Shown here: piece after piece, positions 228 through 48,116 of the stretch
Numbering within the stretch: position 1 is the first letter of the stretch
Layout: the number at the start of each line of letters is the position of its first letter
From: an uncultured virus (IMG/VR IMGVR_UViG_3300037418_002259)
Taxonomy: Duplodnaviria > Heunggongvirae > Uroviricota > Caudoviricetes
DNA: 64,000 nucleotides
Direction: 5' to 3' (one strand)
Virus record (IMG/VR): IMGVR_UViG_3300037418_002259
The notes under the pieces: generated by a model
Database searches by the model: none
The model's input: the letters and a program-made list of their open reading frames with translations, nothing else
What the model was told of the DNA's origin: nothing
Translations under genes and position numbers: made by a program

Positions 228-303
228 TTGCACTGAATGCTAAGCGGGTATACGCTGCTCTTGTTGGCTGGAAGAGCGCCCGGCCCCCAACCGAGGAGAC
301 ACA
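228..303 (+). promoter_or_regulatory. Class A promoter + leader hairpin + RBS
   Basis: TTGCAC-17nt-TACGCT; spacer contains GCTAAGCGGGTA; hairpin GGCTGG-AAGAGCGC-CCGGCC (266-285); AGGAGAC before ATG 304. Confidence 0.8.
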
Positions 304-546
304 ATGGACCACGCACAGACCCCCCGCCGCGAACTCCCCCTCCAGCTCCTGGCCATCACGCTCCTGCGGGGCACGGTCAAGCACCTGATCGACACCGAAG
401 AGGGAAACGGCGTGACCCTGTGCGGTCGGAGCACCGGCATCAACCCCCGGTACATCCGCGTCGGCAGCCACGTCACCTCGCTTGAGTCCACGGACAACGC
501 GAACTGCAAGAAGTGCATCGCCATCGCCGAGACGATGGAGGACTGA
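304..546 (+). CDS. Small hypothetical protein, possible Zn-binding (TLCG...CKKC)
   Basis: RBS AGGAGAC; first gene after a class A promoter. Confidence 0.75.
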   Translation: MDHAQTPRRELPLQLLAITLLRGTVKHLIDTEEGNGVTLCGRSTGINPRYIRVGSHVTSLESTDNANCKKCIAIAETMED

Positions 547-549
547 CCG

Positions 550-915
550 ATGCCCGCGCGAGCCGCGCGCCGCCCCCGGGTGGTGCGCTGCCCCGGCTGC
601 GAGAAGCCGCTGCACGACGGCCAGCCCCTCGACCACGTCACCGGCGACGTCGGCGGCTACGTCGAGACCAGCCCTGGCCACTTCCGCAAGACGCACCGTG
701 AGGGCCAGATCGGCTGGCACGAGTCGTGCCTCGCCGACTTCCGCGCTCTGAACGAGCGCTCGGCCGCCGCCGCGCTGCTGGCCCAGGACATCGACATGGT
801 GTCCTGCTTCCCTGGCCGCGAGGATGTCGCCGTACGCGCGATGCGGAACAACGGCCGCAGCGAGGACCACATCGCCGCTGTGCTGGCCGCCGTCGAGGAA
901 GGACGGAAGTCCTGA
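550..915 (+). CDS. Hypothetical protein (CxxC, HxxC)
   Basis: Follows previous gene by 3 nt; TGATG coupling to next. Confidence 0.7.
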   Translation: MPARAARRPRVVRCPGCEKPLHDGQPLDHVTGDVGGYVETSPGHFRKTHREGQIGWHESCLADFRALNERSAAAALLAQDIDMVSCFPGREDVAVRAMRNNGRSEDHIAAVLAAVEEGRKS

Positions 916-1160
916 TGGCGCGCGCAAAGCTGGTCGACGCGATCGCTGCGTCGCTCGTCGCGGACCAGGCTCTCGAAGACCTCGCGATCCGCGAGAAGGC
1001 GCAGGGCGTCGACTACGAGACGCCCGAGTGGAAGGCCGCGAACCGGGCACTGGCCGCCACCTACCGCCAGGTGCCCTGGTGGGCGCGCTGGTGGTCGGAG
1101 AAGCTGATCGACGCGGCCTGGCGTGCGCGTGGCTCGCGGTACGTCGGAGAAGCCCGATGA
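915..1160 (+). CDS. Hypothetical protein (MARAKLVDA...)
   Basis: TGATG overlap start; GC-rich third codon positions. Confidence 0.65.
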   Translation: MARAKLVDAIAASLVADQALEDLAIREKAQGVDYETPEWKAANRALAATYRQVPWWARWWSEKLIDAAWRARGSRYVGEAR

Positions 1161-1195
1161 GCCGCCCCAGACACCTACCTGATCGAGGACACGAA

Positions 1196-1501
1196 ATGAC
1201 CATCACCACGCACACCGCGACATGCCCCAACCCGACCTGCGGATCCGACCTGAAGTCGTTCCGCGCCGAGGTTGACGACAACGACACCCGCTGCGCCGAC
1301 CCGTGGCACGACACCCCATGGCCGGCGGACGCGACCCGGGACAAGATCTCGACCGTGCTGAACGAGCACCAGGTCGTCGGAGTGTCCGGCTACGGCGTGG
1401 AGCAGATCATGTGCGACTGCTCCCGCTACGTCTGGTACAGCACCGACCAGTACCGCGAGCACCTCGCCCTGAAGCTGGCCGCCGCGCTGGCCGAGGCCTG
1501 A
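1196..1501 (+). CDS. Hypothetical protein, Cys/His-rich
   Basis: GAGGA RBS before ATG 1196. Confidence 0.65.
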   Translation: MTITTHTATCPNPTCGSDLKSFRAEVDDNDTRCADPWHDTPWPADATRDKISTVLNEHQVVGVSGYGVEQIMCDCSRYVWYSTDQYREHLALKLAAALAEA

Positions 1502-1504
1502 CCG

Positions 1505-2008
1505 ATGACCACCAACACGAGCTACGGCACCTGCCTGCAGCACACCGGCGACCAGAGCGTGCGCGTCGCGATCGAGTACGCGCTCGCTGACCACGCCGGC
1601 GACTTCGACATGCCCGCGATCGAAGCGGAGTACCGCGCGGCCCTAGCTGAACTGCTGCCCGAGGGCGTGACCCTGAACGGCGACGAGTTCTACGGCCCGT
1701 ACCCGATGCCCGAGGACGCCGATGTCGCGATCCGTGCAGCGGTCGAGGAACTGAAGGGCGACCGGTTCTGGGCGCTCGTCGCCAGGCATGACGGCGTCAC
1801 TCGGTTCGTTCACGAACGCAACGGCGACCAGTTGGTCGTCCGCCGCTACTCGAACGGGGACGTGTACGTCAGCGTCACGTCACCGGTCGGGTCCGCGGCG
1901 CTGATTTTGCCTCCCGAAGCCGGGAACGGCCTGGTCGAGTACCTGCGGCCGGGAGCGATGAGCGGCCGTGTCCTGCCTGCTGAGGAAGAGCCCGAGGGGA
2001 TCCGGTGA
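1505..2008 (+). CDS. Hypothetical protein
   Basis: Operon continuity; GTGA overlap with next. Confidence 0.7.
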   Translation: MTTNTSYGTCLQHTGDQSVRVAIEYALADHAGDFDMPAIEAEYRAALAELLPEGVTLNGDEFYGPYPMPEDADVAIRAAVEELKGDRFWALVARHDGVTRFVHERNGDQLVVRRYSNGDVYVSVTSPVGSAALILPPEAGNGLVEYLRPGAMSGRVLPAEEEPEGIR

Positions 2009-2253
2009 GCACGACCACCTACCGCGCCACGGTCCCGCTCCCCCTGAACCCGGACAGCCGCCGCGAGGTCATCGAGACGCTGCGACAGTTCGGCACGGTT
2101 GTCCGTGTCCAGGAGGACGGCGCGCGGTGGGAACTCGACGCACCCGACCTGTACGCCCTCGCCGAGACCGTGTTCGAGGTCCGCGCCGAGATCGCGTTCG
2201 CCTACGGGTTCCCCCCGACCATCCCGCGCCCGAGAGAGGTCCGCGCGAAATGA
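2005..2253 (+). CDS. Hypothetical protein
   Basis: GTGA/ATGA coupling at both ends. Confidence 0.65.
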   Translation: MSTTTYRATVPLPLNPDSRREVIETLRQFGTVVRVQEDGARWELDAPDLYALAETVFEVRAEIAFAYGFPPTIPRPREVRAK

Positions 2254-2969
2254 CCACGTTCACCGAAGACTTCCAGCGCCGGCTGCGCGCCGTACTGGCG
2301 AAGCGCACCGGCCGGGAGATCCCTGCCGACGCCAAGATCACGATCAACGCCGACGGCGCGAGCTACGGCGAGGACTCGTCCCTCGGCATGGACCTGTCGC
2401 TCGACATCCGCGCATCCGGTCCGGTGCACGCCGAGTACACGTACGACGAGCCGGGCGCATGGCCGCGCCTGCTCGCCGACCTCGAAGCGGTCGACACCCC
2501 GCCTCCGCTCGACGTACTGGCGGCCGACATGCTGGTCCAGCTAAACGACCAGGGCGGCCGGATGCTGCCTGACAACGACGCGGCCAAGATCATCCTTGCC
2601 GGGCGTGACCTGATCGCCCGCCATGGCGACCACTGGTACATCACCCCGGGCGGCCGCGAGGTCGCCGCCGAGATCAAGGCAGCCGGCGCGCCGAAGACTC
2701 CCCCGCGCGCGTTCGTACGCGTCGAGCGGCACTCATCGATCCCTGGCGCAGCGTCGTCGGAGTGGTGGGCGTGGGACGAACTCGGGACCCGCTACCTCCT
2801 GCAGTTCGCGCACGGCATCGGCACCGTCCGCGCCGTTGTGCAGCCTGGTGGCGACTTGCATGAGGTACGCCGGTTCGAGCAGGGCACATCGAGTCACATC
2901 ACCCTCGACGCGTTCGCCCACCGCGCCGGTATCGACGTGTCACAGATCCCCGAGGAGCAGCGCCGATGA
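2250..2969 (+). CDS. Hypothetical protein
   Basis: ATGA coupling; GAGG RBS. Confidence 0.7.
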   Translation: MTTFTEDFQRRLRAVLAKRTGREIPADAKITINADGASYGEDSSLGMDLSLDIRASGPVHAEYTYDEPGAWPRLLADLEAVDTPPPLDVLAADMLVQLNDQGGRMLPDNDAAKIILAGRDLIARHGDHWYITPGGREVAAEIKAAGAPKTPPRAFVRVERHSSIPGAASSEWWAWDELGTRYLLQFAHGIGTVRAVVQPGGDLHEVRRFEQGTSSHITLDAFAHRAGIDVSQIPEEQRR

Positions 2970-3205
2970 CAGCGGACTTTGACGCGGCCCTGGCCAACCT
3001 CGCCGCGTACGACGCCGAGCGGGACGCGCGGGCCGAGAAAGCGCTCGTGTTCGCTCGGGACGTCCTCGGCGTGCAGCTCACCACCATGCAGGAGCAGACG
3101 ATCCGAGCGCTGTACCACGGCGGCCACGTCTACAACGCCCGGCCGCACGGCCTTCGCACCGTGGAACGCGTCATCACCGAGTTCGAGGCGGAGGCCGCAC
3201 GATGA
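2966..3205 (+). CDS. Hypothetical protein
   Basis: GAGGAG RBS; ATGA coupling. Confidence 0.65.
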   Translation: MTADFDAALANLAAYDAERDARAEKALVFARDVLGVQLTTMQEQTIRALYHGGHVYNARPHGLRTVERVITEFEAEAAR

Positions 3206-3633
3206 GCGTCACACTCGCGCAGTTCGTCGAGAACCGGCTCGACGAGATCGAGGAGGCCGCGCTCGCTGTCCTCGGCGTCAACCTGATCGTGGACCGCCGC
3301 CTCGGGAAGCCGCTGCCCCGCTGGGGACGGGACGGGTCCTCGATCCGCGACGGTGTCACCGAGCGCCGCGACGACCGGATCCTCCGGGTGAAGCACACCT
3401 GGGCCCGCGAGGCGGAGCACATCATCCGCCACGACCCGGCCCGGGTCCTCGACGAGGTCGACGCGAAGCGCCGCACCCTGACCCGGCACGCCAGTTGCGG
3501 CACCGGCACCGGGTACTGCGACGACGGCGGCCACGGCTGGGACGAGATCGGCGGCTGCGCGGACCTCGCTGACCTGGCCGCGCCGGACCACGAACACCCC
3601 GACTACAACCCCGCGTGGAAGGTATGGGCATGA
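3202..3633 (+). CDS. DUF6221-like actinophage protein
   Basis: RHDPARVLDEVDAKRR and C-terminal LAAPDHEHPDYNPAW motifs. Confidence 0.7.
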   Translation: MSVTLAQFVENRLDEIEEAALAVLGVNLIVDRRLGKPLPRWGRDGSSIRDGVTERRDDRILRVKHTWAREAEHIIRHDPARVLDEVDAKRRTLTRHASCGTGTGYCDDGGHGWDEIGGCADLADLAAPDHEHPDYNPAWKVWA

Positions 3634-4169
3634 GCGACGTACAGGACAAGCCGCCCACGAACACATACCAGGCCGCGGACTGGATCGTGAAGCGGCACCC
3701 GTGGGCTAGGGAGATGGTGGAGCGTGTCGTCGGCCCGCTGGGCGACGTCGACTCGAACCACATCTGGCTCAACGAACTCGCGCAAGCCGTCCTCGACCAC
3801 GCCGCGTACAGCGAAGAGTGGAAGCGGTACAGAGACCGGACCCCGCCACCGTCGTCGTACGACGACCCGGACGAGCGGAAGTACAACGCGTGGGAGGCGG
3901 CCGGCCCGCAGCCCACGCCGGGAGCCGCGGCCTACGGCCCGATGTCCAGCGGTGAGCGACGCATCGTCCGACTGATCGCGACACTGGCCCGCGCCGGTGT
4001 TCCCTGGTCGGTCGACGACATCAGTTTCGACCAGCGCGGGGCCCGGATCCTGCTCGACTGGATGGCTGTCTGCCGCGCCCAGCTGCCCGAGGAACTGTAC
4101 GACCCGAACTACGACCCCGAAGCGAAGTGGCGCGACTTCGCGGCCCGCAGGGAGGCTGGCGAACTATGA
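3630..4169 (+). CDS. Hypothetical protein
   Basis: ATGA coupling; last gene of the unit. Confidence 0.7.
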   Translation: MSDVQDKPPTNTYQAADWIVKRHPWAREMVERVVGPLGDVDSNHIWLNELAQAVLDHAAYSEEWKRYRDRTPPPSSYDDPDERKYNAWEAAGPQPTPGAAAYGPMSSGERRIVRLIATLARAGVPWSVDDISFDQRGARILLDWMAVCRAQLPEELYDPNYDPEAKWRDFAARREAGEL

Positions 4170-4187
4170 GCCTCTGGCGTCGGAAGA

Positions 4188-4264
4188 TCGCCAAGCGACA
4201 CTAAGCGGGTATACACTACCCGTGTCCGGGGAGAGCAGCCCGGCAGACAGGAGACCAAAGCAAC
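4188..4264 (+). promoter_or_regulatory. Class A promoter + leader hairpin + RBS
   Basis: TCGCCA-18nt-TACACT with CTAAGCGGGTA; hairpin CCGGG-GAGAGCAG-CCCGG (4226-4243); AGGAGACC. Confidence 0.8.
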
Positions 4265-4639
4265 ATGACTGACCGCTTCCCCGTCACGACCCTTCAGTAC
4301 GTGATCCTGGACGAGATGCCGCTACGGTTCGTCCCGCCCGTGGATCCCTACGACGTGCACCACCAGGAGATCGACCCGGAGTTCTACGCCGCGCTTCCCC
4401 AGCCGTTCCGGGACGCCGCCGCGCGCGCTGTCACCAGCGAGGAAAGCGACCTGAAGTGCGCCGACTGCCGCGAGACGATCGGGTGGGTCCTGATCGAGGA
4501 CGACGAGCGGCCGCACCAGAGCGGCATGCGCTGGCTCCAGGTCTGCATCGTTGCCACCGGCGAGGCTGTAGCCATGGTGTGCGAGGACTGCTCTCCCGAG
4601 GTATACGCCACCATCGGGGAGCCGTTCGATGGCGACTGA
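4265..4639 (+). CDS. Hypothetical Zn-ribbon protein (CADC...CEDC)
   Basis: RBS; first gene after promoter. Confidence 0.75.
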   Translation: MTDRFPVTTLQYVILDEMPLRFVPPVDPYDVHHQEIDPEFYAALPQPFRDAAARAVTSEESDLKCADCRETIGWVLIEDDERPHQSGMRWLQVCIVATGEAVAMVCEDCSPEVYATIGEPFDGD

Positions 4640-5129
4640 CCTGTTGCAGCAGCTCGAACTGTTCAGCGAAGTCGACTTCGAGACCGAACCCATGGTCTCG
4701 ATCTACGTCAGCTACCACACCCACTACCGGGTGCCCCGCGCCGAATACCGGTTCCCGACCGGACAGCACGACCGCGAGCGGTGGGACCTGTTCACGTCCA
4801 AGCCCCGGGAAGCCAAGCACCACACGGTGCGGCTGATCGACCACGGGCCGACGATGCTGAGCGTGGACGCATGCCAGTACGGCGTGCACACCGACTGCCG
4901 CAACGGCAACCACAAGGGCTGCCCGTTCAACCCCGGCCGCACGCACGGCGACGGCAGGAACCGGATCACCACCGGCACCATCATCGAGCACCGCGACGAG
5001 CACGGGTACTGGCGTCCCGTCGAGGACGAGAGCAAACCGGGCCGGCCGTACCTGTACCTCCTGCCGTTCCATGTGTGGCAGTGTGCCTGCGACTGCCACC
5101 ACGACCTCCTGACAGAAGGCAGCAAATGA
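4629..5129 (+). CDS. Hypothetical Cys/His-rich protein (WQCACDCH)
   Basis: Overlap coupling; GGAG RBS. Confidence 0.7.
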   Translation: MATDLLQQLELFSEVDFETEPMVSIYVSYHTHYRVPRAEYRFPTGQHDRERWDLFTSKPREAKHHTVRLIDHGPTMLSVDACQYGVHTDCRNGNHKGCPFNPGRTHGDGRNRITTGTIIEHRDEHGYWRPVEDESKPGRPYLYLLPFHVWQCACDCHHDLLTEGSK

Positions 5130-5383
5130 ACCTCCCGATCGACCTCGGCGAGACGCGGAACGCCACACCGATGCCCGCGGACACGATCGAATGGCGGCAC
5201 GTCTACCGTGCCGGATCGATGATCGGCACCCTCTACACCGTCGAACCCAACCCGGACCTCGACCTGCCCGCCGGCTACCGGTTCATCGAGCGGCTCTCGG
5301 TCGGCACCTGGTACGACGAGTGGAACACCCTCGACGAGGCGGTCGACGCGATCACCCACCACTACGCGGAGAAGGAAGCCTGA
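5126..5383 (+). CDS. Hypothetical protein
   Basis: ATGA coupling. Confidence 0.65.
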   Translation: MNLPIDLGETRNATPMPADTIEWRHVYRAGSMIGTLYTVEPNPDLDLPAGYRFIERLSVGTWYDEWNTLDEAVDAITHHYAEKEA

Positions 5384-5772
5384 TGGGCCAGTACGTCATC
5401 AAGGAAGCACCCGACACGGACTACTACGTCGTGTGGTCGACCTTCACCGACTCCCCCGTGTTCGGCGGACCCCGTGACGAGCTGCTGCCGTGGCTGTGGG
5501 ACGACGACGACCGGAAGCCGGACCGGATCGAGGACTGGGAACCGACCCACCCGGACAACATCGTCCAGCGCGCCGACAAGGTCGGTACGTCGGTACGGAC
5601 CAGGATCGGGCCGGGCCCGCTTGTCGGGTCGTGGGAGCACGACCACATCACCTACCGCGGGAACGGCGTACAGGGCGACGTGAAGCGCGCCGACCTGTTC
5701 ACGTTGACCCGCCGGCTCGGAGACGACGAGGCAGCTGACGTCGCTGACCTGGTCGAGCCATTCGATGGCTAG
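5383..5772 (+). CDS. Hypothetical protein
   Basis: TGATG coupling; AAGGA RBS. Confidence 0.7.
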   Translation: MGQYVIKEAPDTDYYVVWSTFTDSPVFGGPRDELLPWLWDDDDRKPDRIEDWEPTHPDNIVQRADKVGTSVRTRIGPGPLVGSWEHDHITYRGNGVQGDVKRADLFTLTRRLGDDEAADVADLVEPFDG

Positions 5773-6124
5773 CCGACCGACCGCGCAGGACCGCGCCGTC
5801 CTAGTCGAGTCCTGGGGCGGGCCGCTCGCGCCAGACGTGCAGTTCGTCGAGGTACGCGGTGGGCGGGTGCATGTCGCGGCCTACAATCCGGACTCCATCG
5901 ACGGATTCCCCGTGACCGCAGAGGGTGTCACTGATCTCCTGGTCGGCGTCGTCTGGACGTTCTGCGGTGCCGAGATCCGCAAGCACCTCGGCGGGCTGGA
6001 GGAGTCCGCCTGGCCGACCGCTGCTTTCGCCGACGAGAAACTCTGCCAGCGGTGCGTGGCCGCTGTACCCGAGAACGACCGATGGCGGCTGTTCGAGCAC
6101 GATCAGGAGAACCCGAGTGAGTAA
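5765..6124 (+). CDS. Hypothetical protein
   Basis: Overlap coupling. Confidence 0.65.
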   Translation: MASRPTAQDRAVLVESWGGPLAPDVQFVEVRGGRVHVAAYNPDSIDGFPVTAEGVTDLLVGVVWTFCGAEIRKHLGGLEESAWPTAAFADEKLCQRCVAAVPENDRWRLFEHDQENPSE

Positions 6125-6482
6125 GCGCATCAACGATGCTCGGCTGTGGGCGCTGATGCTCACCCCGCTCCAGGACGCCGGCCTCGACTACGCCACCGCA
6201 GACCGCACCAGCCGCCAGCTCGTCGCTCTCGTACGCCGCGAGCGTGACCCAGGGCGGCGTACGTTCGCTCCTGGCGACCCGTTGCCCTCGCCTCCTCCCG
6301 CGAGGGTGGCGGACGTGGACGGCGAGATCTGGGAGCACCAGGACGCCGGGAACGGCTGCTACCGCATGTGCGAGTCCGACCGGCGACGGCTCGCGGACAG
6401 CACCGAGGACGTCGAGGGCGTGCGCGTCTGGCCGTTCTTCCTCGACGAGTGGGGCCCGCTGACGGAGGTTGAGGGCGCATGA
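6117..6482 (+). CDS. Hypothetical protein
   Basis: AGGAG RBS before GTG 6117. Confidence 0.65.
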   Translation: MSKRINDARLWALMLTPLQDAGLDYATADRTSRQLVALVRRERDPGRRTFAPGDPLPSPPPARVADVDGEIWEHQDAGNGCYRMCESDRRRLADSTEDVEGVRVWPFFLDEWGPLTEVEGA

Positions 6483-6805
6483 CCGACGCGCCTACCATCA
6501 CGCTGCGCGTCACCGGCCCGCACGGCGATCGCGTGTGCGAGATCAAGGCAATCCCGGGCAAGCAGTTCGCGATCGCGGTCCCGTCATACGTCGAGCCTGG
6601 CCGGCTGAACGCCACCCGCCACAAGGACTCGGTCGCCGTCAACGCTCAACTGATCGCGATGGCCCGGCGTACCGGCAACGATCGAGTCTTCCGCGCGTAC
6701 GTGTTTCACCTGCCGTCTGGTGATCTGCTGTGGTCTGGTTTCCCCGCGGACGAGGGCGACCGGCTCGCGGCGGCACAGGCCGCCTACGACCGCGTCGGGT
6801 CATAG
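6479..6805 (+). CDS. Hypothetical protein
   Basis: ATGA coupling; GAGGG RBS. Confidence 0.65.
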   Translation: MTDAPTITLRVTGPHGDRVCEIKAIPGKQFAIAVPSYVEPGRLNATRHKDSVAVNAQLIAMARRTGNDRVFRAYVFHLPSGDLLWSGFPADEGDRLAAAQAAYDRVGS

Positions 6806-7084
6806 GCCGCCTGGCATCTTGGCCTCGCGCCGGATCTCGTCGGATGGCCACGTGTCAGCCGGCCGGAGATGCGACTGGTGGAACCAGTCCTCGACGGAGC
6901 GCGGTTGCCGGTGGTCGGGGATGTACACGACCCGGGCGGCCCAGTCGCCGCTGCCTTGCCGTCGCCATTCGAGGATGAGGCCGGGCCAGGGTCCGGTAGC
7001 GTCGCGGGTTCGGAGTACCCAGCAGTGTCGTTGTGTGGCGTCGGGGCCGTGGTGGTCACGGGGGTAGCGCTTGTTCGAGCCCAT
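6800..7084 (-). CDS. Small hypothetical protein (MGSNKRYP...GLILEWRR...WAARVVY), probably leaderless
   Basis: Fills the gap between + strand units; minus-strand TACCGT -10 lies 6 nt before the ATG. Confidence 0.65.
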   Translation of the reverse strand: MGSNKRYPRDHHGPDATQRHCWVLRTRDATGPWPGLILEWRRQGSGDWAARVVYIPDHRQPRSVEDWFHQSHLRPADTWPSDEIRREAKMPGGL

Positions 7085-7103
7085 GGCGGCACGGTACGAC
7101 CAC

Positions 7104-7177
7104 TTGCCGACATCACTAAGCGGGTATACGCTGCCGTTGTGCGGCTGAAGAGCAGCAGCCCAGACAAGGAGACCACC
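7104..7177 (+). promoter_or_regulatory. Class A promoter + leader hairpin + RBS
   Basis: TTGCCG-17nt-TACGCT; hairpin GGCTG-AAGAGCAG-CAGCC (7143-7160); AGGAGACC. Confidence 0.85.
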
Positions 7178-7858
7178 ATGAGCCACGCGCCCACCGTCGA
7201 CGTCGACTACTTCACCGCCTACAACGCCGACTCCGACCTGTACAACCGCGCACCCATCGAGTACATCTTTCGCCAGGTGGGCGACGGCCCCCTCGTCATG
7301 TGGTACCTCAACACGGTGGGCGACCTCGTCGAGGTGACCGACACGATCGACATGCCGTTCCTCGACCTCGTCTGGGAGCGGATGCGCGACGTCGAGGCCT
7401 CCGCGCGAGTCACCGGATCGGTCGGCTCCAATCACGTCGTGACCTTCGGCGCGTCGCCGATCGTCATCGAGTGGTACCGCGACCAGCCCGTGGCCGCACC
7501 GGACAACCCGGCCAACCGCCCGGTCAAGCCGTTCTCGCTGCGCCCGGTCGAGACGACGTTCCTGTTCGCGCCGCCGTCCTCGTTCCACGGGAACACGGTC
7601 GTCACCGCGACGTACGTCCCGGCCGGATACGGCGGACTCCCGCAGCACCTGGTGATCTTCTACACCGGCGGCGTCCACTGGACTCCCGCCGAGATCGGCG
7701 GCGACGCACCGGTGTTTGGCGTGGGGCGGGTCGAGTACGACGACGTCGACCAGAAGGAGATCACGACCCCGATCGGGTTCTCCCACCTGACCTACTCGGA
7801 GGCGCTCACCCTGCACGCCGCCGAGCTGCAGCGCGCGCTCGGCGCGCCTCAGGCGTAG
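7178..7858 (+). CDS. Hypothetical protein
   Basis: RBS; lies between promoter and terminator. Confidence 0.75.
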   Translation: MSHAPTVDVDYFTAYNADSDLYNRAPIEYIFRQVGDGPLVMWYLNTVGDLVEVTDTIDMPFLDLVWERMRDVEASARVTGSVGSNHVVTFGASPIVIEWYRDQPVAAPDNPANRPVKPFSLRPVETTFLFAPPSSFHGNTVVTATYVPAGYGGLPQHLVIFYTGGVHWTPAEIGGDAPVFGVGRVEYDDVDQKEITTPIGFSHLTYSEALTLHAAELQRALGAPQA

Positions 7859-7876
7859 CCTCAACACCGAACGAGG

Positions 7877-7908
7877 AAGGGCTCCCCGCGGACGGGCGGG
7901 GAGCCCTT
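7877..7908 (+). terminator. Intrinsic terminator hairpin
   Basis: AAGGGCTCCCCGC-ggacgg-GCGGGGAGCCCTT. Confidence 0.75.
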
Positions 7909-7915
7909 TCGCATG

Positions 7916-7950
7916 CTCGACGCGACGTAACCCGCACCGCGCCCTACCGT
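7916..7950 (+). promoter_or_regulatory. Class B promoter
   Basis: CTCGACGCGACGTAAC-13nt-TACCGT, 7 nt before ATG 7958. Confidence 0.7.
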
Positions 7951-7957
7951 CGCCAGC

Positions 7958-8182
7958 ATGAGACTTACAACCATCTGGACGATCCCGGCCATGAGCCTCG
8001 GCGAGCGGTTCCGTCGCACCGGTGAGGCCGCGCTGATCGCCATCGCCCACCGGCTCCCCCGCGCACTGGCGTACCGGTCGTTCATCGACACCGGAGCCCG
8101 CCACATCCACTCCGACGAGATCGTGACCGACGTCAGCTACCTCGACGTGCTCCGCCGCATGGGGGCGACCGTCGAGCGCTGA
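7958..8182 (+). CDS. Small hypothetical protein, probably leaderless
   Basis: No RBS; ATG at the predicted +1 of a class B promoter. Confidence 0.65.
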   Translation: MRLTTIWTIPAMSLGERFRRTGEAALIAIAHRLPRALAYRSFIDTGARHIHSDEIVTDVSYLDVLRRMGATVER

Positions 8183-8210: not shown

Positions 8211-8289
8211 TTGCCTTGCGATGCTAAGCGGGTATACGGTGGGGTTATCGCCGGATGAGCGCCCGGCACAACCAAGGAGACCAGCACCC
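8211..8289 (+). promoter_or_regulatory. Class A promoter + leader hairpin + RBS
   Basis: TTGCCT-18nt-TACGGT; GCCGG-ATGAGCGC-CCGGC (8250-8267); AAGGAGACC. Confidence 0.8.
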
Positions 8290-8832: not shown

Positions 8833-8908
8833 TTGAGGACGCCCACTAAGGGTGTGTACGCTGATAGCCCGGGTCGGAAGAGCAGCCGACCGGACCTAGG
8901 AGACCTCA
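8833..8908 (+). promoter_or_regulatory. Class A promoter + leader hairpin + RBS
   Basis: TTGAGG-18nt-TACGCT; GGTCGG-AAGAGCAG-CCGACC (8872-8891); AGGAGACC. Confidence 0.85.
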
Positions 8909-9502
8909 ATGCACGCATTCCGCGCCCTGACGCGTACCCTCTTCACCCGCCGCGTTGCGCTCTTCGCAGCTGCCGCCGCTGCGTTCCTCGGAACCATCCT
9001 CATCGCCAACTACGTCACCAGCCGGTACGGCATGGTCCCGGTCGGGTTCGGGCTGTACGCGACAGCCGGCACCTACCTCGCCGGGCTCGCGTTCGTCCTG
9101 CGCGACAGCCTCCAAGACATCGCAGGGCGCACGGCCGTCGTGGTGCTGATCTGCATCGGCGCTTCGTTGTCGTACGGGATCAGCGCGCCCGGGATCGCTA
9201 CCGCATCGGCCGTCGCGTTCCTCGCGTCCGAGGCCGCCGACTTCGCCATCTACTCTCCGCTGCGTGACCGCGGCTACATCCGCGCAGCGGTCGCCTCCAA
9301 TGTCGTCGGTTCCCTGGTCGACACCGCGCTGTTTCTGTGGCTCGCTGCGCCCGCGCTGCGTGCAGTCATCCCGGGGTTCCGCGCCCAGGACGCGTTCTTT
9401 GGCCAGGTCGTCGGCAAGCTGGCGATCACCGGCGTTGTGATCCTGGTCGTGACCGCAGTCCGCGTATCGATCCCGGCCCGCAGTACGACAGCCGAGGAGT
9501 GA
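8909..9502 (+). CDS. yhhQ: VUT/YhhQ-family membrane protein, putative preQ0/preQ1 transporter
   Basis: Multiple TM segments; AGTYLAGLAFVLRD, ASAVAFLASEAADFAIY, ASNVVGSLVDTALFLWLA, GQVVGK motifs. Confidence 0.8.
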   Translation: MHAFRALTRTLFTRRVALFAAAAAAFLGTILIANYVTSRYGMVPVGFGLYATAGTYLAGLAFVLRDSLQDIAGRTAVVVLICIGASLSYGISAPGIATASAVAFLASEAADFAIYSPLRDRGYIRAAVASNVVGSLVDTALFLWLAAPALRAVIPGFRAQDAFFGQVVGKLAITGVVILVVTAVRVSIPARSTTAEE

Positions 9503-10359
9503 CCACCTTCTACCTCGGCACGCACATGCCGCACTGGCTCGCGACTGCCGGGGTCCCGCTGTTCGTCTCGCGGCGACGTCTCTACAAGCGCAAGACGTTC
9601 CCGCGAGCAGTAGCCCCATGGGCCCTGGACTCCGGGGGGTTCACGCAACTGAAGGACTACGGCGGTTGGGATCTCTCGGCCGCCGAGTATGCCGCCGAGG
9701 TACGCCGCTACCGTGACGAGATCGGCATGCTCGACTGGGCCGCGCCGCAAGACTGGATGTGTGAGCCTTGGGTGATCACCGGAAAGAACCGGCACCTCAC
9801 GCCCGGCGCTGCGCCGTTCTTCCACGGCACCAGGGAAGCGCGCGGCGTACCGCTCGACGGGCCGGACGAAGACCTGGCCTCGGCGATCCGCAAGCACCAG
9901 CGATTCACGGTCGACAACCTGCTGGAGCTGCGCGCGATCGCGCCTGACCTGCCGTTCATCCCGGTACTGCAAGGCTGGCGGTTGGAGGACTACCGGCGCT
10001 GCGCGGACATGTACGCCGAGGCCGGCGTCGACCTCACAGCGGAGCCGGTGGTCGGGCTCGGGTCGGTGTGTCGTCGCCAGGCCACCGAGGAGATCGATCT
10101 CATCGTGTCCGAGTTCCACGCCCGCGGGATCAACCTTCACGGCTTCGGGGTGAAGACCGACGGGCTCGGGTCGTACGGGCCCAACCTCGCCTCGGCTGAC
10201 TCGCTCGCCTGGTCGTTCAATGGCCGCTACCACGCTTGCCGGCACGGAACCGCGAAGACCGAGGCGAACTGCCTCGCGCACGCGATGCAGTGGCGGGCGC
10301 GGGTGCTCGGCGTCCTCGACGGCCCTGTGCAACTCGGCCTGCCGATGCAGATCGCCTGA
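9499..10359 (+). CDS. Queuine tRNA-ribosyltransferase (TGT/DpdA)-like protein, candidate DNA deazaguanine transglycosylase
   Basis: WALDSGGF, APQDWMCEP, IPVLQG, VGLGSVC, LHGFGVK, SADSLAWS motifs; GTGA-coupled to the yhhQ-like gene. Confidence 0.75.
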   Translation: MTTFYLGTHMPHWLATAGVPLFVSRRRLYKRKTFPRAVAPWALDSGGFTQLKDYGGWDLSAAEYAAEVRRYRDEIGMLDWAAPQDWMCEPWVITGKNRHLTPGAAPFFHGTREARGVPLDGPDEDLASAIRKHQRFTVDNLLELRAIAPDLPFIPVLQGWRLEDYRRCADMYAEAGVDLTAEPVVGLGSVCRRQATEEIDLIVSEFHARGINLHGFGVKTDGLGSYGPNLASADSLAWSFNGRYHACRHGTAKTEANCLAHAMQWRARVLGVLDGPVQLGLPMQIA

Positions 10360-10615: not shown

Positions 10616-10689
10616 TTGAAACCAGCGCTAAGCGTGTGTACGCTAAAGGGGTGGTCGGAAGAGCAGCCGACCCTCGAACAGGAGACACG
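10616..10689 (+). promoter_or_regulatory. Class A promoter + leader hairpin + RBS
   Basis: TTGAAA-17nt-TACGCT; GGTCGG-AAGAGCAG-CCGACC (10653-10672); AGGAGAC. Confidence 0.85.
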
Positions 10690-14595: not shown

Positions 14596-14620
14596 AACTG
14601 TCCCTCAGCGTGTGTACGCT
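14592..14620 (+). promoter_or_regulatory. Class A promoter variant, no leader hairpin
   Basis: CTGAAA-17nt-TACGCT with CTCAGCGTGTG; GGAGAC RBS. Confidence 0.6.
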
Positions 14621-17204: not shown

Positions 17205-17278
17205 TAGTTCAGCATGCTAAGCGGGTGTACAGTGGCGTTGTGTCGGGAGAGCAGCCGGCACAGATCCGGAGGAGACCA
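17205..17278 (+). promoter_or_regulatory. Class A promoter + leader hairpin + RBS
   Basis: GCTAAGCGGGTG-TACAGT; TGTGTCGG-GAGAGCAG-CCGGCACA (17239-17262); AGGAGACC. Confidence 0.8.
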
Positions 17279-22290: not shown

Positions 22291-22400
22291 GCTTAGGGTG
22301 TGTACACTTCAGGGCACGGGACCCCGGCTGGTAAGGTCCCCGCCGCCTGGGGGAAGAGCAACCCGAGACGGTGCATCCCCGAGGACTAGGAGACCCGCCC
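22291..22400 (+). promoter_or_regulatory. Class A-like promoter with weak leader hairpin
   Basis: GCTTAGGGTGTG-TACACT; GGG-AAGAGCAA-CCC; TAGGAGACCC. Confidence 0.6.
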
Positions 22401-24238: not shown

Positions 24239-24310
24239 TCGCCAACCGCGCTAAGGGTGTGTACGCTAAACGCGTAGGCGGAAGAGCACCCGCCCTGAAT
24301 GGAGACTCTC
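24239..24310 (+). promoter_or_regulatory. Class A promoter + leader hairpin + RBS
   Basis: TCGCCA-17nt-TACGCT; GGCGG-AAGAGCAC-CCGCC (24277-24294); GGAGAC. Confidence 0.8.
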
Positions 24311-28713: not shown

Positions 28714-28775
28714 CGAGCGCTAAGGGTGTGTACGCTCGGAGTGTGCCGGACGAGCAACCCGGCAAACAGGAGACC
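28708..28775 (+). promoter_or_regulatory. Class A promoter + leader hairpin + RBS-like box
   Basis: TTGTGA-17nt-TACGCT; TGCCGG-ACGAGCAAC-CCGGCA (28744-28764); AGGAGACC with no canonical start codon following. Confidence 0.75.
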
Positions 28776-32886: not shown

Positions 32887-33203
32887 CGTACTACGACCAC
32901 CCGGCGATCGAGTACATCGAGCCCGGGGAGACGAAACGCGAGTGCTCGAAGTGCGGTGTCGAGGTGACGGGCGTGAAGGGCGTCAACCTCATGCACTTCG
33001 ACGAGCAGGTGCCGCTGATCACGGTCCCCCGTGAGTACATGGCCGCTGTCCGGCAGGCCACTGCGGCGATCGGGCAGGCGCAGTCGCAGATCACCAAGCG
33101 GGCGAGCGATGAGGAGCGTGCGCGGGCGGCTGCGGTCGCGCTGTATTCGGCTGGTCTGCTGCGGGTGAAGCCGGTGAAGCCGCGGGTGAAGACGACCCGC
33201 TAA
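32883..33203 (+). CDS. Hypothetical protein (CSKC)
   Basis: GTGA coupling. Confidence 0.6.
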   Translation: MTYYDHPAIEYIEPGETKRECSKCGVEVTGVKGVNLMHFDEQVPLITVPREYMAAVRQATAAIGQAQSQITKRASDEERARAAAVALYSAGLLRVKPVKPRVKTTR

Positions 33204-33313
33204 GGGTGTGTACTTCTGCGCTAAGGGTGTGTACGCTAATGCTCGACGCGACATTAACTACATGCCTGTAGCACCGTGAGGCCGGATGAGCGCCCGGCCG
33301 ACAGGAGACCGCC
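33199..33313 (+). promoter_or_regulatory. Composite element: two tandem class A cores + class B promoter + leader hairpin + RBS
   Basis: GCTAAGGGTGTGTAC twice (33199, 33220); CTCGACGCGACATTAAC-13nt-CACCGT; GGCCGG-ATGAGCGC-CCGGCC (33280-33299); AGGAGACC. Confidence 0.8.
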
Positions 33314-33742
33314 TTGAGCACCCCGAAGCACACCTTTGATCCGGACAGCAGCGGGCTCAGCTGTGACACCTGCTTGCTGCCGAAGAAGCACCCGAACCAC
33401 GACGTCGCCCGGACCCCGGTTGACGCGCCGTCCACGGTCGTCACCGTGAACCAGTCCCCGACCGCACAGGCCGCCGGCGAGGCCGCCGCGCTGCGGTCCG
33501 GGACCCTCCGCGCGAAGATCTACCACTGGATCGTCACCCGCCCACAGGGCGCGACCACCGACGAGGTCGAGGTCCACCTGGACCGGTCACACCAGTCGGT
33601 GTCGTCCGCGATGAACACCCTCGCCGGGAACGGGCACATCGTGCCGCTGGTCCAGGATGGTCGAGAGGTTCGCCGCGACACCCGCACCGGAAACCCTGCG
33701 ACCGTGTACGTGGCTGCCTCGGCACGAGTCGGTGTCGCATGA
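33314..33742 (+). CDS. Winged-HTH DNA-binding protein
   Basis: GATTDEVEVHLDRSHQSVSSAMNTLAGNG...RRDTRTGNPATVY. Confidence 0.75.
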   Translation: MSTPKHTFDPDSSGLSCDTCLLPKKHPNHDVARTPVDAPSTVVTVNQSPTAQAAGEAAALRSGTLRAKIYHWIVTRPQGATTDEVEVHLDRSHQSVSSAMNTLAGNGHIVPLVQDGREVRRDTRTGNPATVYVAASARVGVA

Positions 33743-41079: not shown

Positions 41080-41086
41080 CAGCCCC

Positions 41087-42152: not shown

Positions 42153-42227
42153 TTGCCCCAGCCTGCTAAGGGTGTGTACGCTCGGGGGGAGGTGGAAGAG
42201 CAGCCACCCGGACTAGGAGACCCGATC
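42153..42227 (+). promoter_or_regulatory. Class A promoter + leader hairpin + RBS
   Basis: TTGCCC-18nt-TACGCT; GGTGG-AAGAGCAG-CCACC (42191-42208); AGGAGACC. Confidence 0.85.
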
Positions 42228-44680: not shown

Positions 44681-44755
44681 TTGCATGATCACGCTAAGCG
44701 GGTGTACGGTCTGGGGTGTTGGGGAAGAGCAGCCCCACAGAACAGGAGACCAACC
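44681..44755 (+). promoter_or_regulatory. Class A promoter + leader hairpin + RBS
   Basis: TTGCAT-18nt-TACGGT; TGGGG-AAGAGCAG-CCCCA (44720-44737); AGGAGACC. Confidence 0.85.
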
Positions 44756-45055
44756 GTGACCACACTCGCCACGATCCCGATCGTTGCCCGCGAGGCCGAG
44801 AAGCTCATCAGCGCGTTCACGCTCACCGCGATCCACGCCCGCGACATCATGGTCGACCGGCACGGCGTACTCAGCTTCTTCTACGGCCCTGGCCTCCGAC
44901 GCCCCCGCCGCGTCGAGATCGCCCAGACCGCGCCCGATGTCTACTCGGTCCAGATCGGGCACGTCGACACCGTGACACACGACCTGGTCATCGACCACGT
45001 CGAGCACGACGTACCGGCCGCGCGTCTGCGCGAAACGGTCCGCGAACTTACCTGA
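44756..45055 (+). CDS. Hypothetical protein
   Basis: RBS; first gene after promoter. Confidence 0.7.
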   Translation: MTTLATIPIVAREAEKLISAFTLTAIHARDIMVDRHGVLSFFYGPGLRRPRRVEIAQTAPDVYSVQIGHVDTVTHDLVIDHVEHDVPAARLRETVRELT

Positions 45056-45190
45056 CAGATCTGGTCTAGCCTGCGTCACTCAGCGTACGTACAGTGGCGC
45101 AGGCGGCGGTACGGATGGCTCATCCAGGGTTCAAGACCCGGCGTACCACCATCGCTCCAATGGGGGGCGATTTCAGAAGGGGATTTCTCT

Positions 45191-46156: not shown

Positions 46157-46170
46157 CTCGACCGCAGTAC

Positions 46171-46207
46171 GGCGGGGCGTCTCTCATCGGGTGGGAGACG
46201 CCCCGTT
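46171..46207 (+). terminator. Intrinsic terminator hairpin
   Basis: GGCGGGGCGTCTCTCA...TGGGAGACGCCCCGTT. Confidence 0.7.
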
Positions 46208-46232
46208 CTCATGCCCGCTCAACGCCGGGTCC

Positions 46233-46305
46233 TCGCCCATGTGGCTAAGCGGGTGTACGCTATAGCGGATGGTCGGGAAGAGCGCCCCGGCCCACATCGA
46301 AGGAG
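46233..46305 (+). promoter_or_regulatory. Class A promoter + leader hairpin + RBS
   Basis: TCGCCC-17nt-TACGCT; GGTCGGG-AAGAGCGC-CCCGGCC (46271-46292); AAGGAGA. Confidence 0.8.
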
Positions 46306-46383
46306 ATGAGACACCGCCTGCCCCCGCTGTCCGGACCCACTCCCCTGCCCACGGGGGGCACCCCCACCACCACAGGAGACCCC

Positions 46384-47073
46384 ATGACTACCACCATTCA
46401 AGACACCGGCCGTGCCTCGGCCGGCATCCGCACCCCGCTCGGAACCCTCCGCGTCGAGGACCTGGCCGGCATCGAAGACCTCGAAGAGCGAGGCGCGAAG
46501 GCCGCCGCACTCACCCGCGTCGCCGAGGAGCGCGCCAACGTCGAGCGCAGCACCCGCGACATGGCCGGGCTCGTCCTGATCCAGCCCTACCTCGAAGCGC
46601 AGCGCCCGTTCGACGACGAGATGGCCCGCATCAAAGACGAACTCGAAGCCGGCAAGATCGACTCGGCCGAGGCGTGGAACCTGCGGATGGAGGCGGCCGA
46701 GAAGCACCGCGCAGACCTGCAGTCCGTCCGGTTCAAGCCGGTACACATCTACCGCGACACGATCGGTGTGTCCCGTGGCTTGTTCGTCCGGATGCAGCAG
46801 CGTGCCACCGAGAAGCTTCCGGAGTTCCGTGACGACCACGGCAAACTGCTCACCCCGGACCAGCTCCAGCGGCTCGCGATCCACGCCCGCGAGGAGTGCA
46901 AGCGGTACGACGCCATCGCGAAGCGAGCCCGCGCTATCCGCGACGAGGTCGGGCTGATGCTCCTGAACGGCAACCCGAAGATCGGCCGGCCAGCGATGAG
47001 CAACGCCGACGTCGCCCGGCTGTTCAAGCTCACCACGGCCCGCGTCGCGCAGATGCGGTACGGCACCCGGTGA
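46384..47073 (+). CDS. Helical protein with C-terminal sigma-region-4-like HTH
   Basis: AGGAGACC RBS (alternative in-frame start at 46306); MSNADVARLFKLTTARVAQMR. Confidence 0.7.
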   Translation: MTTTIQDTGRASAGIRTPLGTLRVEDLAGIEDLEERGAKAAALTRVAEERANVERSTRDMAGLVLIQPYLEAQRPFDDEMARIKDELEAGKIDSAEAWNLRMEAAEKHRADLQSVRFKPVHIYRDTIGVSRGLFVRMQQRATEKLPEFRDDHGKLLTPDQLQRLAIHAREECKRYDAIAKRARAIRDEVGLMLLNGNPKIGRPAMSNADVARLFKLTTARVAQMRYGTR

Positions 47074-47402
47074 TCCGGCGACTCGGTGCGCGTCTCGTCC
47101 TGCTCAGGGCCCGGCTGGACGACATCCTGACCGAGATGGACCGGGCAATGTGGCGGGCGCTCTTTGCACCGGCACGTGGCCTGGTGTGGCTGTGGAACGC
47201 GATCAAGGCGGTACCTGGCGTGCAGCAAGTCGGGCACGGACTCGCCACCGTGCTCGGCCTGTACCGCCTCGACCGGTGGCTGGTCGAACGCGGCATCAAG
47301 GCAGATCTGAAACTTGCCGACGACCTGGCGGCTGCCGGACTCAACAAGCAAGCCGACATGCTGCGCACCGCCGCCGCAGAACGGAAACTCGCTAATGACT
47401 GA
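47070..47402 (+). CDS. Hypothetical protein
   Basis: GTGA coupling. Confidence 0.6.
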   Translation: MIRRLGARLVLLRARLDDILTEMDRAMWRALFAPARGLVWLWNAIKAVPGVQQVGHGLATVLGLYRLDRWLVERGIKADLKLADDLAAAGLNKQADMLRTAAAERKLAND

Positions 47403-48060
47403 CCGCACCATCCAGATGGCGCTACCCGATGGGGCCGTCCTGCTGCTACCTGACGGAACCACGTACGCCCTGACCGGCGATCTGAAGATCGATACCGACA
47501 TCGAGCGGATCCGTACCGACCGGGCACGGATCCCAGACGAGACCTGGTCGCACACCGATTCAAACGGCCACACTCACGCCTACGTCCGAGATGAGGACGA
47601 CGTCCCCCGGCTCCCGTCACTGGAGCGCCGGACACGAGCCGTGCCCTGCGATGGGTCGTGCTACTCGATCACAGGTGGAGATTGCGACGGCTACACGGTC
47701 GAGGAGTGGTTCTGCCGCGAGTGCGGCGACCAGGTCGAGCCCGGCTTCAAGCCCGACTACGAGGCGAGTGATCCAGGTATCCCGATCACCCAGACCAGCA
47801 ACTACCAGCTGGTCGCTGCACTTCCCCTGCCTTCAGCACCCAGCGGGGTGATCACGCTGAGCGCCGGCGAGTCCCTGTTTCCACCGATCGAGAACGCCGA
47901 GATCGCCTGGGAGGACCCAGAGGGCAACCAGCATCGCTTCCCGTTGCCGACGCTGAACGCCGGCGACGACATGGGTTTCACGGCAGGATCGTCGCTGGTG
48001 CAGGTCGACCTGTACGGCTACGAGATGAAGGACATCAAGCGCAAGCCAACAGGACCGTAG
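47395..48060 (+). CDS. Hypothetical protein (CRECG)
   Basis: Overlap coupling. Confidence 0.7.
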   Translation: MTDRTIQMALPDGAVLLLPDGTTYALTGDLKIDTDIERIRTDRARIPDETWSHTDSNGHTHAYVRDEDDVPRLPSLERRTRAVPCDGSCYSITGGDCDGYTVEEWFCRECGDQVEPGFKPDYEASDPGIPITQTSNYQLVAALPLPSAPSGVITLSAGESLFPPIENAEIAWEDPEGNQHRFPLPTLNAGDDMGFTAGSSLVQVDLYGYEMKDIKRKPTGP

Positions 48061-48074
48061 CGGTCCACCCGTTG

Positions 48075-48116
48075 CACCGTAGGCCGGATGAGCAGCCGGC
48101 CGAACAGGAGACCAGG
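48075..48116 (+). promoter_or_regulatory. -10 hexamer (CACCGT) + leader hairpin + RBS
   Basis: GGCCGG-ATGAGCAG-CCGGCC (48082-48101); AGGAGACC. Confidence 0.7.

What the first reader, a model, noticed from the sequence alone, without database searches (positions are those of the whole stretch)
266..48101. Genome-wide 5'-leader hairpin family with co-varying stems and a conserved AAGAGCAG-type loop
Seen: 15 copies, at 266, 4226, 7143, 8250, 8872, 10653, 17239, 22351 (weak), 24277, 28744, 33280, 42191, 44720, 46271 and 48082. Stem sequences differ (GGCTG/CAGCC, GGTCGG/CCGACC, GGTGG/CCACC, TGGGG/CCCCA, GGCGG/CCGCC, TGTGTCGG/CCGGCACA, GGCCGG/CCGGCC) but always pair, sometimes with G-U pairs, which suggests the structure acts as RNA. 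The 8-nt loop is conserved: A(A/T)GAGC(A/G)(G/C) or GAGAGCAG (9 nt at 28744). Nearly every copy lies within about 10 nt after a -10 hexamer, so at the mRNA 5' end, and is followed by (A)GGAGAC(C) and the first gene of a unit. Inference: a protein-recognised RNA element. Options are a boxB/nut-like antitermination site for long operons, a tag for selective translation or protection during host shut-off, or a translational operator. I do not recognise it as a known RNA family.
Basis: partly seen in the sequence, partly recalled or inferred. Interest (0 to 1): 0.88.

Follow-up and report, generated by a model that had tools for sequence, protein, structure and literature searches.

The report
Repeated leader hairpin of actinobacterial phages
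A large soil-bacterium virus, and its relatives that also live as plasmids, start many of their early messenger RNAs with the same small folded hairpin placed right behind a repeated DNA box; this looks like an undescribed two-layer (DNA plus RNA) switch for a whole gene set, but what reads it is not yet shown.

Summary
All 15 hairpins are present (15 on +, 1 on -; shuffles 0.57, max 3) and the stems co-vary (0 of 500 shuffles). Rfam has no match. The window is part of a ~136-kb phage related to Streptomyces phage Gilgamesh and to Streptomyces phage-plasmids. Related hairpins with loop core (G)AGC(A/G) occur in 19 of 20 clade records scanned; each phage has its own loop and box dialect. Copies also sit between genes inside operons. 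They mark early, recombination and accessory genes, rarely virion genes. Best reading (0.45): an Aca1/Aca2-like layout, a DNA operator plus an RNA operator read by a phage (winged-)HTH protein, spread over a whole regulon. A hairpin-led winged-helix gene exists in 11 of 12 Streptomyces records, and an unrelated one at window 33314. Rivals: a positive tag for antitermination or stability (0.22), and a C4-like antisense RNA (0.2), for which a conserved cloverleaf RNA is a candidate. No binding or expression data exist.

The parts
240..256 (+). promoter box CTAAGCGGGTATAC fused to -10 TACGCT (first of 14 hairpin-linked boxes; others start at 4201, 7116, 8224, 8846, 10628, 17217, 22292, 24251, 28720, 33221, 42166, 44694, 46245)
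   Evidence: TTG-type -35 at 17-18 nt spacing in 8 of 14
266..285 (+). leader hairpin, loop AAGAGCGC; gene at 304
4226..4243 (+). leader hairpin, loop GAGAGCAG; gene at 4265
7143..7160 (+). leader hairpin, loop AAGAGCAG; ORF at 7178 (weakest predicted fold, loop unpaired 0.64)
8250..8267 (+). leader hairpin, loop ATGAGCGC; gene at 8290
8872..8891 (+). leader hairpin, loop AAGAGCAG; Vut_1 transporter and DpdA genes follow
10653..10672 (+). leader hairpin, loop AAGAGCAG; gene at 10690
17238..17263 (+). leader hairpin, 9-bp stem with G-U pairs, loop GAGAGCAG; gene at 17279
22351..22364 (+). weak copy (3-bp stem, loop AAGAGCAA) in a longer folded leader of the SSB gene (22401)
24277..24294 (+). 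leader hairpin, loop AAGAGCAC; gene at 24311
28744..28764 (+). leader hairpin, 9-nt loop ACGAGCAAC; AGGAGACC follows but no start codon at SD spacing
33200..33237 (+). two boxes in tandem, 21 bp apart; the first lacks a good -10, which points to a protein site rather than only a promoter
33245..33258 (+). second promoter-like motif GACGCGAC(A/G)CTAAC class (11 copies on +), directly upstream of the 33280 hairpin
   Evidence: promoter role inferred
33280..33299 (+). leader hairpin, loop ATGAGCGC
33314..33742 (+). hairpin-led gene with a C-terminal winged-helix-like stretch: candidate self-regulated reader in this phage
   Evidence: MarR_2 E 0.0025, below cut-off; not detectably related to the Gilgamesh gp93 family
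42191..42208 (+). leader hairpin, loop AAGAGCAG; gene at 42228 (DUF3263)
44720..44737 (+). leader hairpin, loop AAGAGCAG; gene at 44756
46271..46292 (+). leader hairpin, loop AAGAGCGC; GGAGA overlaps the ATG at 46306
48082..48101 (+). hairpin without the box, 30 nt (stop to loop) after an upstream ORF; endonuclease-like gene at 48117

Best explanation
Each cassette is a host-sigma promoter with an asymmetric DNA box in its spacer, then an RNA hairpin that begins at or just after the predicted +1, then a short A/C-rich linker and a strong RBS. The stem only has to pair; the loop (core (G)AGC(A/G)) is the signal. A phage regulator, most likely a small (winged-)HTH protein made from one of these same cassettes, binds the loop and lowers output of the downstream gene (blocked ribosome loading or faster decay), while the box gives transcriptional repression. 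This would hold some 15-25 early, recombination and accessory units down together during plasmid-prophage life or after the early phase. Shown: cassette anatomy, covariation, clade spread, gene classes, existence of hairpin-led winged-helix genes. Inferred: start sites, that the box is an operator, that a protein binds the loop, which protein, and the sign of the effect.
For: Stem covariation with fixed loop; loop predicted open in 13 of 15 leaders (0.98-1.0). 177 copies in 19 of 20 records scanned, 100 of 177 behind a TAnnnT hexamer; found without a prior pattern as an AGC-containing loop word among the six most enriched in 16 of 22 records. The box differs between phages and occurs in tandem or without a good -10, as operators do. 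Copies lie between genes inside operons and in two cases over a start codon (G004, G005). The same layout (DNA motif on the promoter, RNA motif directly after the start site, several operons, motifs between genes) is described for Aca1/2/10/12 (PMC13551039, passages). The Gilgamesh gp93 family (66-88 aa) is found in 11 of 12 Streptomyces records (9 at E below 1e-24, W04 4e-4, W02 0.012) and all 11 leaders carry the hairpin in the genome's own dialect; its model (pLDDT 82) matches winged-helix folds, including SelB C-terminal domains (TM about 0.6, best E 4e-3).
Against: No binding, expression or start-site data. No single candidate covers the clade: gp93 was not found in W05, W01, G003, G004, G005/G014, G006 or the window; Aca2_YdiL scored 0 of 5 records and the weakly Aca2-like Gilgamesh gp87 is in that phage only. 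gp93 may carry the hairpin simply as one early gene among many. The stem leaves the SD free (2-27 nt downstream, 5th-95th percentile), and in 8 replication-operon leaders it is about 100 nt from the start codon, too far for steric blocking. A loop core kept across distant phages while the boxes diverge fits a host reader or an RNA partner as well as one phage protein. Aca1 binding to its single hairpin gave no translational silencing (PMC13551039).
Confidence: 0.45

Rival explanations
1. Positive tag: a factor loaded at the loop makes the transcript resistant to termination (nut/boxB-like) or protects it and favours its translation during host take-over; the 5'-terminal stem itself slows decay.
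For: One copy per promoter, starting at the predicted +1. In replication leaders the hairpin is either at +1 far from the RBS (8 records) or next to the RBS (W04, G010), so its place is flexible. SD left accessible. Copies precede protein genes inside a 37-tRNA cluster in G005. 5'-stem protection and lambda N/boxB are recalled, no call.
Against: Several copies per operon, each directly before an RBS; two copies overlap start codons; only 16 strong hairpins in the 64-kb window; no N- or NusG-like gene seen among the families shared by the records.
Confidence: 0.22
2. Antisense target, as in P1 C4: the loop is a seed for a phage small RNA. A conserved cloverleaf RNA in the parB/terS leader carries a single-stranded GCUCGC(A/U) that can pair either with its own loop (pseudoknot) or with the leader loops.
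For: The RNA is in 12 of 12 Streptomyces records, covaries (93.5% paired, 0 of 500 shuffles), and its core recurs in distant G003. In the 13 records that have it, the own GCUCGC segment pairs with the own loops at least as well as foreign ones (W02/W04 6 vs 4 bp; G003 5.1 vs 4.2-4.8). C4 has three stem-loops and two seed loops (PMC5320573, passages). The idea came from earlier AI notes e1-5912584 and e1-6472393.
Against: Only 4 bp are possible in Gilgamesh, W05 and W06. The segment's variation is explained by the internal pseudoknot (A-U 6, U-A 3 at one pair). Not found in the window (partial genome), G004 (95% complete), G005/G014 or W01. No separate antisense unit turned up. No Rfam C4 match at that locus.
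Confidence: 0.2
3. Copied cassette: promoter-leader modules spread by recombination (PeSL-like); the hairpin is a generic 5' stabiliser and the loop is shared by descent or is just a stable loop.
For: Each phage has one dialect for box, loop and linker, as concerted copying would give; PeSLs are such cassettes (PMC2839356, passages).
Against: Stems are freely exchanged while the loop is kept; the core survives across phages with about 46-55% terminase identity; contigs of the one run that holds this DNA gave no convincing cassette-to-cassette joint.
Confidence: 0.1
4. DNA hairpin in the non-template strand or on single-stranded DNA (ops/RfaH- or N4-promoter-like; both recalled).
For: It lies where the non-template strand is open during promoter escape; some G003 loops read GGTAGC.
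Against: Copies far from promoters; G-U pairs tolerated; the T of GGTAGC is not kept (4 of 158 at that position).
Confidence: 0.03

Closest known systems
Aca1/Aca2 (and predicted Aca10/Aca12) paired DNA and RNA motifs of acr-aca operons (PMC13551039; passages read)
   Same: DNA motif over the promoter, RNA hairpin starting just after the start site, fixed distance to the first gene, further motifs at neighbouring operons and between genes; single-hairpin form as for Aca1.
   Different: The box is asymmetric, not an inverted repeat; up to 22 sites per genome rather than up to three operons; no Aca2_YdiL match in 5 records; reader unproven; no acr genes identified.
SAS/ESAS of cluster K mycobacteriophages (PMC3203893) and of Microbacterium clusters EF/EC (PMC7302621; passages only, figure S10 not seen)
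   Same: Repeated, unusually conserved RBS-region motif (here AGGAGACC) with an upstream conserved element before non-structural genes of actinobacterial phages; function unknown.
   Different: K ESAS are 17-bp inverted repeats with a variable spacer; the EF and EC motifs look like -10 boxes without a fixed-loop hairpin when fetched. Here the stem varies and the loop is fixed.
PeSL cassettes of RB49/phi1 (PMC2839356; passages)
   Same: Repeated promoter + stem-loop + SD cassette in front of accessory ORFans.
   Different: PeSL stem-loops mostly overlap the promoter and act as terminators; no conserved loop reported in the passages read. Here the hairpin is in the transcript.
ANTAR-target RNAs of actinobacteria (PMC8164766; passages)
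   Same: Leader hairpins read through a purine-rich loop; the AGAGCA hexaloop of Gilgamesh has A1 and G4.
   Different: No second hairpin (18 of 158 vs 14% in shuffles); A1 not kept; loops 6-10 nt.
C4 antisense RNA of P1/P7 (described in PMC5320573; passages)
   Same: A cloverleaf RNA exists in this phage-plasmid clade with a segment complementary to part of the leader loops.
   Different: No Rfam C4 match; pairing only 4-6 bp with the loop; the segment is used in an internal pseudoknot; not found in all members.

Membership tests
Any Rfam 15 family | covariance-model score at gathering threshold | tested here: not met
   0 matches in the window; only sub-threshold noise at the Gilgamesh cloverleaf locus
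Aca-type DNA+RNA operator | DNA motif overlapping the promoter with an RNA motif directly after the start site | tested here: met
   12 of 15 window copies; start sites are predicted, not mapped
Aca-type DNA+RNA operator | DNA motif is an inverted repeat | tested here: not met
   box is asymmetric; repeated head to tail at 33200/33221
Aca-type DNA+RNA operator | co-encoded Aca-family HTH protein | tested here: not met
   PF08965 0 of 5 records, control rang; gp87 weak hit in Gilgamesh only; other Aca families not searched
Aca-type DNA+RNA operator | the regulator binds the RNA motif | not testable with these tools
   needs EMSA or pull-down
SAS/ESAS | over-conserved RBS-position motif before non-structural genes | tested here: met
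   GGAGA invariant in 14 aligned copies, GGAGAC in 13
SAS/ESAS | SAS consensus GGGATAGGAGCCC or GGGAAAGGACCCC; ESAS 17-bp inverted repeats with variable spacer | tested here: not met
   consensus differs; fetched EF and EC motifs lack the fixed-loop hairpin; cluster K sequences judged from the paper only
ANTAR-target RNA | two tandem hairpins 2-25 nt apart | tested here: not met
   18 of 158 vs 14% shuffled; 2 of 13 in the window
ANTAR-target RNA | hexaloop with A1 and G4 | tested here: inconclusive
   G4 fixed by the search itself; A1 in 79 of 158; ANTAR protein search rang nowhere, controls included
PeSL | stem-loop within the promoter acting as terminator; recombination between cassettes | tested here: inconclusive
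   hairpin lies downstream of the -10; one run's contigs give no usable joint
lambda nut (boxA-boxB; recalled) | one site per operon with boxA and an N-like protein | tested here: not met
   several copies per operon; no conserved boxA-like word in the alignment; no N-like gene recognised, which a short diverged protein could escape
C4-type antisense system | cloverleaf RNA whose loops are complementary to, and vary with, the targets | tested here: inconclusive
   own pairing never worse than foreign, but 4 bp only in 3 of 13 records; RNA not found in the window, G004, G005, W01

The most novel reading that the evidence does not exclude
Gilgamesh-like phage-plasmids run a genome-wide, two-layer regulon in which 10-22 transcription units and internal cistrons share one RNA hairpin code, (G)AGC(A/G), read by a small winged-helix protein made from the same cassette, and a pseudoknotted cloverleaf RNA that shows the same loop word and hides its complement acts as decoy or antisense switch between plasmid and lytic life.
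Probability: 0.2. Interest if true: 0.85.

Novelty: new variant of a known kind. Interest (0 to 1): 0.66.

Why it matters
Repeated start-associated motifs of actinobacterial phages have been listed since 2011 without a mechanism. This family has real covariation, a cultured representative on a laboratory host (Gilgamesh on Streptomyces lividans), natural dialect pairs for swap tests, a named candidate protein (gp93) and a named candidate RNA, so the question becomes directly testable. If the protein model holds, Aca-like DNA+RNA control scales up to a whole early regulon of a temperate phage-plasmid, and the loop-protein pairs would be orthogonal RNA parts for Streptomyces.

Tried and rejected
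No whole genome is held for the window, so half of the ~136-kb phage (contig length) was not seen. blastn of window 1-8000 against phages: no match. Exact box+hairpin patterns: 0 in viral contigs, 1 unrelated hit in genome contigs. Outgroup phages Laroye, ValentiniPuff, Ottawa, AnnaSerena, Quhwah: a loop pattern was near its reversed control (8/13, 39/25, 20/24, 26/21, 39/33; pattern only, no stems). Window 51187-51663 (Gilgamesh gp44 family) is in 19 of 19 records and was my first candidate reader; it has no family or fold match, its leaders mostly lack the hairpin (read by eye), so it stays only a clade marker. gp83, first gene of the replication operon, shows no HTH (judged by eye). The G004 gene whose start is covered by a hairpin has no usable Atlas hit and one weak homolog. 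Cis pseudoknot of the leader loop: 0 of 13 window copies; present only in the W03/G007/G008/G009/G011/G012 group (27 of 32 with at least 4 bp) and not compensated in W03. Sequencing runs: no RNA holder listed; one DNA run that may be the source. Stem length does not differ between promoter and internal copies (p 0.23). The ARAGORN tRNA-Asp at 10042 lies inside the DpdA gene and is probably false. Relaxed ARAGORN was pure noise.


Full report
What the window is. It is part of a GC-rich (68%) tailed phage. The terminase at 49092 is 52% identical to that of Streptomyces phage Gilgamesh, the best of 178 matching phage records, and about 49-52% to eight 125-145 kb Streptomyces and Thermobispora plasmid records. 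A portal-MuF fusion follows. The protein database lists the source contig as 136,199 nt; the only listed run is a rhizosphere metagenome that may be the source. Positions 1-48,500 hold mostly small unknown genes on +, with SSB, DpdA, a Vut_1 transporter, an endolysin and nucleases (57 ORFs were scanned, not all). That the window's phage itself lives as a plasmid is inferred from its relatives.

The observation. All 15 hairpins are there. The loop-stem-GGAGA pattern occurs 15 times on + and once on -, against 0.57 in shuffles. On 14 aligned copies 89% of cells pair, 5 of 6 pairs change on both sides and no shuffle of 500 reaches the score. Folding leaves the GAGC core open in 13 of 15 leaders. 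Rfam finds nothing.

The full cassette. Upstream of 14 of 15 hairpins lies CTAAG(C/G)G(G/T)GT(A/G)TAC, whose last three letters begin the -10 hexamer; in 12 the loop starts 13-16 nt after the hexamer, so the stem starts at about the predicted +1. The box occurs 16 times at one mismatch and never in 30 shuffles; it is doubled at 33200/33221 and appears without a hairpin or with a broken -10 at 14604, 30136 and 24182(-). That is how an operator behaves, but this is inference. A second motif, GACGCGAC(A/G)CTAAC, has 11 copies on + and precedes the 33280 hairpin. No hairpin copy lies in the virion genes from 49092 on.

Relatives. I fetched Gilgamesh, six plasmid records and thirteen IMG/VR records. 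An unguided count of loop words before SD-bearing starts put an AGC-containing 5-mer among the six most enriched in 16 of 22 records (uncorrected P 2e-19 to 2e-3); it did not in W01, G001, G002, G003, G006, G011. With per-genome patterns, which are circular, 177 copies were found in 19 of 20 records scanned (G006 none; W01 and G001 not scanned; G005 and G014 are near duplicates), 100 behind a TAnnnT hexamer. That search required an SD and an ORF downstream, so it cannot show that copies are always near an RBS. Dialects: AGAGCA(A) in Gilgamesh, W05, W06; TGAGCGA in G004; AGAGCGA in G005; ACGAGC(G/A)A in six Streptomyces records; ACAGCGA in W02, W04; loose NNAGCNN in G003; W01 has a few GGTTGGA loops instead. 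Over 158 copies the base before AGC is G in 140 and the base after it a purine in 156. Each phage has its own box; the window, G003, G004 and G005 share the spacing CTAA-N6-NTAC (read by eye). Of 112 hairpin-led proteins scanned (108 from relatives), 13 matched Pfam: YqaJ, RecT and ERF recombinases, DpdA, a DNA methylase, PAPS reductase, GNAT, TROVE and a helicase among them. Five outgroup phages showed no clear excess of a loop pattern.

Where copies sit. Thirteen copies without a -10 hexamer lie within 45 nt of an upstream stop codon and just before an RBS, six of them in G004. In eight replication-operon leaders the hairpin is at +1 and about 100 nt from the start codon, with a second, ECF-like promoter motif between; in W04 and G010 it sits next to the RBS instead. 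In G004 and G005 one copy covers a start codon. So the element is neither strictly one per operon, as a nut site, nor strictly on the RBS, as a classical operator.

Candidate readers. Gilgamesh gp93, a 66-88 aa basic protein, has homologs in 11 of 12 Streptomyces records, and all 11 leaders carry the hairpin. Its model (4 sequences, pLDDT 82) has a winged-helix fold; Foldseek lists ArsR, MarR, Fur, SelB, eS25 and Z-alpha domains at TM about 0.55-0.64 with no E below 0.001. That SelB winged-helix domains bind the SECIS hairpin is recalled. The family was not found in W05 or the distant records. The window has its own hairpin-led, weakly MarR-like gene at 33314 behind the doubled box, and G004 has one too (both E 0.0025, below cut-off); the window's is not detectably related to gp93. 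The only unknown protein in all 19 records, gp44 (window 51187), has no match. Aca2_YdiL is not clade-wide.

A candidate RNA partner. Prompted by earlier AI notes, I found a cloverleaf RNA in the leader of the parB/terS operon, divergent from the replication promoter, in 12 of 12 Streptomyces records. It covaries (93.5% paired, 0 of 500; two rows were misaligned at the loop) and can form a pseudoknot between a (U/A)GCGAG loop and CUCGC(A/U). Its core recurs in G003 at E 0.5, recognised by the two motifs, and was not found in the window, G004, G005/G014, G006 or W01. Its GCUCGC segment can pair with leader loops by 4 to 6 bp and the own pairing is never worse than a foreign one, but Gilgamesh, W05 and W06 reach only 4 bp. 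It may be an antisense partner, a decoy showing the same loop word, or an unrelated leader.

Comparison with what is known. The layout matches what PMC13551039 describes for Aca1, Aca2, Aca10 and Aca12 (passages), but the box is no inverted repeat and no Aca protein is shared, so it works like, and is not, an Aca operator. It shares the over-conserved RBS of SAS/ESAS (PMC3203893, PMC7302621; passages), whose EF and EC motifs lack such a hairpin. It resembles PeSLs in design (PMC2839356; passages) and fails the ANTAR two-hairpin test (PMC8164766; passages). PMC10023795 (passages) notes actinobacterial phage-plasmids but does not name Gilgamesh. Two searches for Gilgamesh gave 0 papers; six other searches listed nothing describing this element (listings only). 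Subscription journals are not covered, and I saw no supplements; figure S10 of PMC7302621 could bear on the ESAS comparison.

Verdict. A real, uncatalogued, clade-wide cis RNA element paired with a DNA box. Most likely a repressive protein-binding site in an Aca-like two-layer regulon (0.45); positive tag 0.22; antisense target 0.2; copied cassette 0.1; DNA hairpin 0.03. New variant of a known kind; interest 0.66.

Noticed in passing
window 8770, 10367, 18884, 19992, 24192, 28125, 33245, 41047, 48647, 51643, 54175 (+): Second repeated motif GACGCGAC(A/G)CTAAC, probably a second promoter class; it shares CTAA with the main box, reaches into the virion region, and at 51643 encodes the DATLTG end kept in close homologs of the gp44-like protein.
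   Followed up: partly
L001 722-820 (Gilgamesh) and 11 other Streptomyces records; L034 203-309 (-): Uncatalogued cloverleaf RNA with a pseudoknot in the parB/terS leader; worth its own study.
   Followed up: yes
window 51187-51663: Small protein with CxxC, C, H and a basic GGP..R.KR motif, before the portal gene in 19 of 19 records; 255 representatives at 50% identity; no family or fold match.
   Followed up: yes
L241, L243, L252, L275, L276 (G007, G009, G012 leaders): A conserved CGCTCC after the hairpin is complementary to the loop and could form an H-type pseudoknot in this subgroup only.
   Followed up: partly
window about 54240-64000: Very long gene after the portal with methyltransferase- and helicase-like motifs (DarB-like by eye), interrupted by a 156-aa ORF at 58743 also seen in Streptomyces relatives.
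   Followed up: no
window 8909-10359: Vut_1 transporter plus DpdA under one cassette: likely 7-deazaguanine DNA modification.
   Followed up: no
L230 1947-15395 (G005): 37 tRNA genes with hairpin-led protein genes among them.
   Followed up: no
L001 531 and other Streptomyces records: GGTGTAAC...CGT motif, an ECF-type promoter candidate matching the phage sigma factor gp92.
   Followed up: no
W01 (L018-L019 vs L023-L024): The Thermobispora record repeats a long stretch 108,210 nt apart, possibly an assembly artefact.
   Followed up: no
L001 2247-3049 (Gilgamesh gp86-87): gp87 is weakly Aca2/YdiL-like and its promoter has a palindrome: a possible separate acr-aca-type operon.
   Followed up: partly
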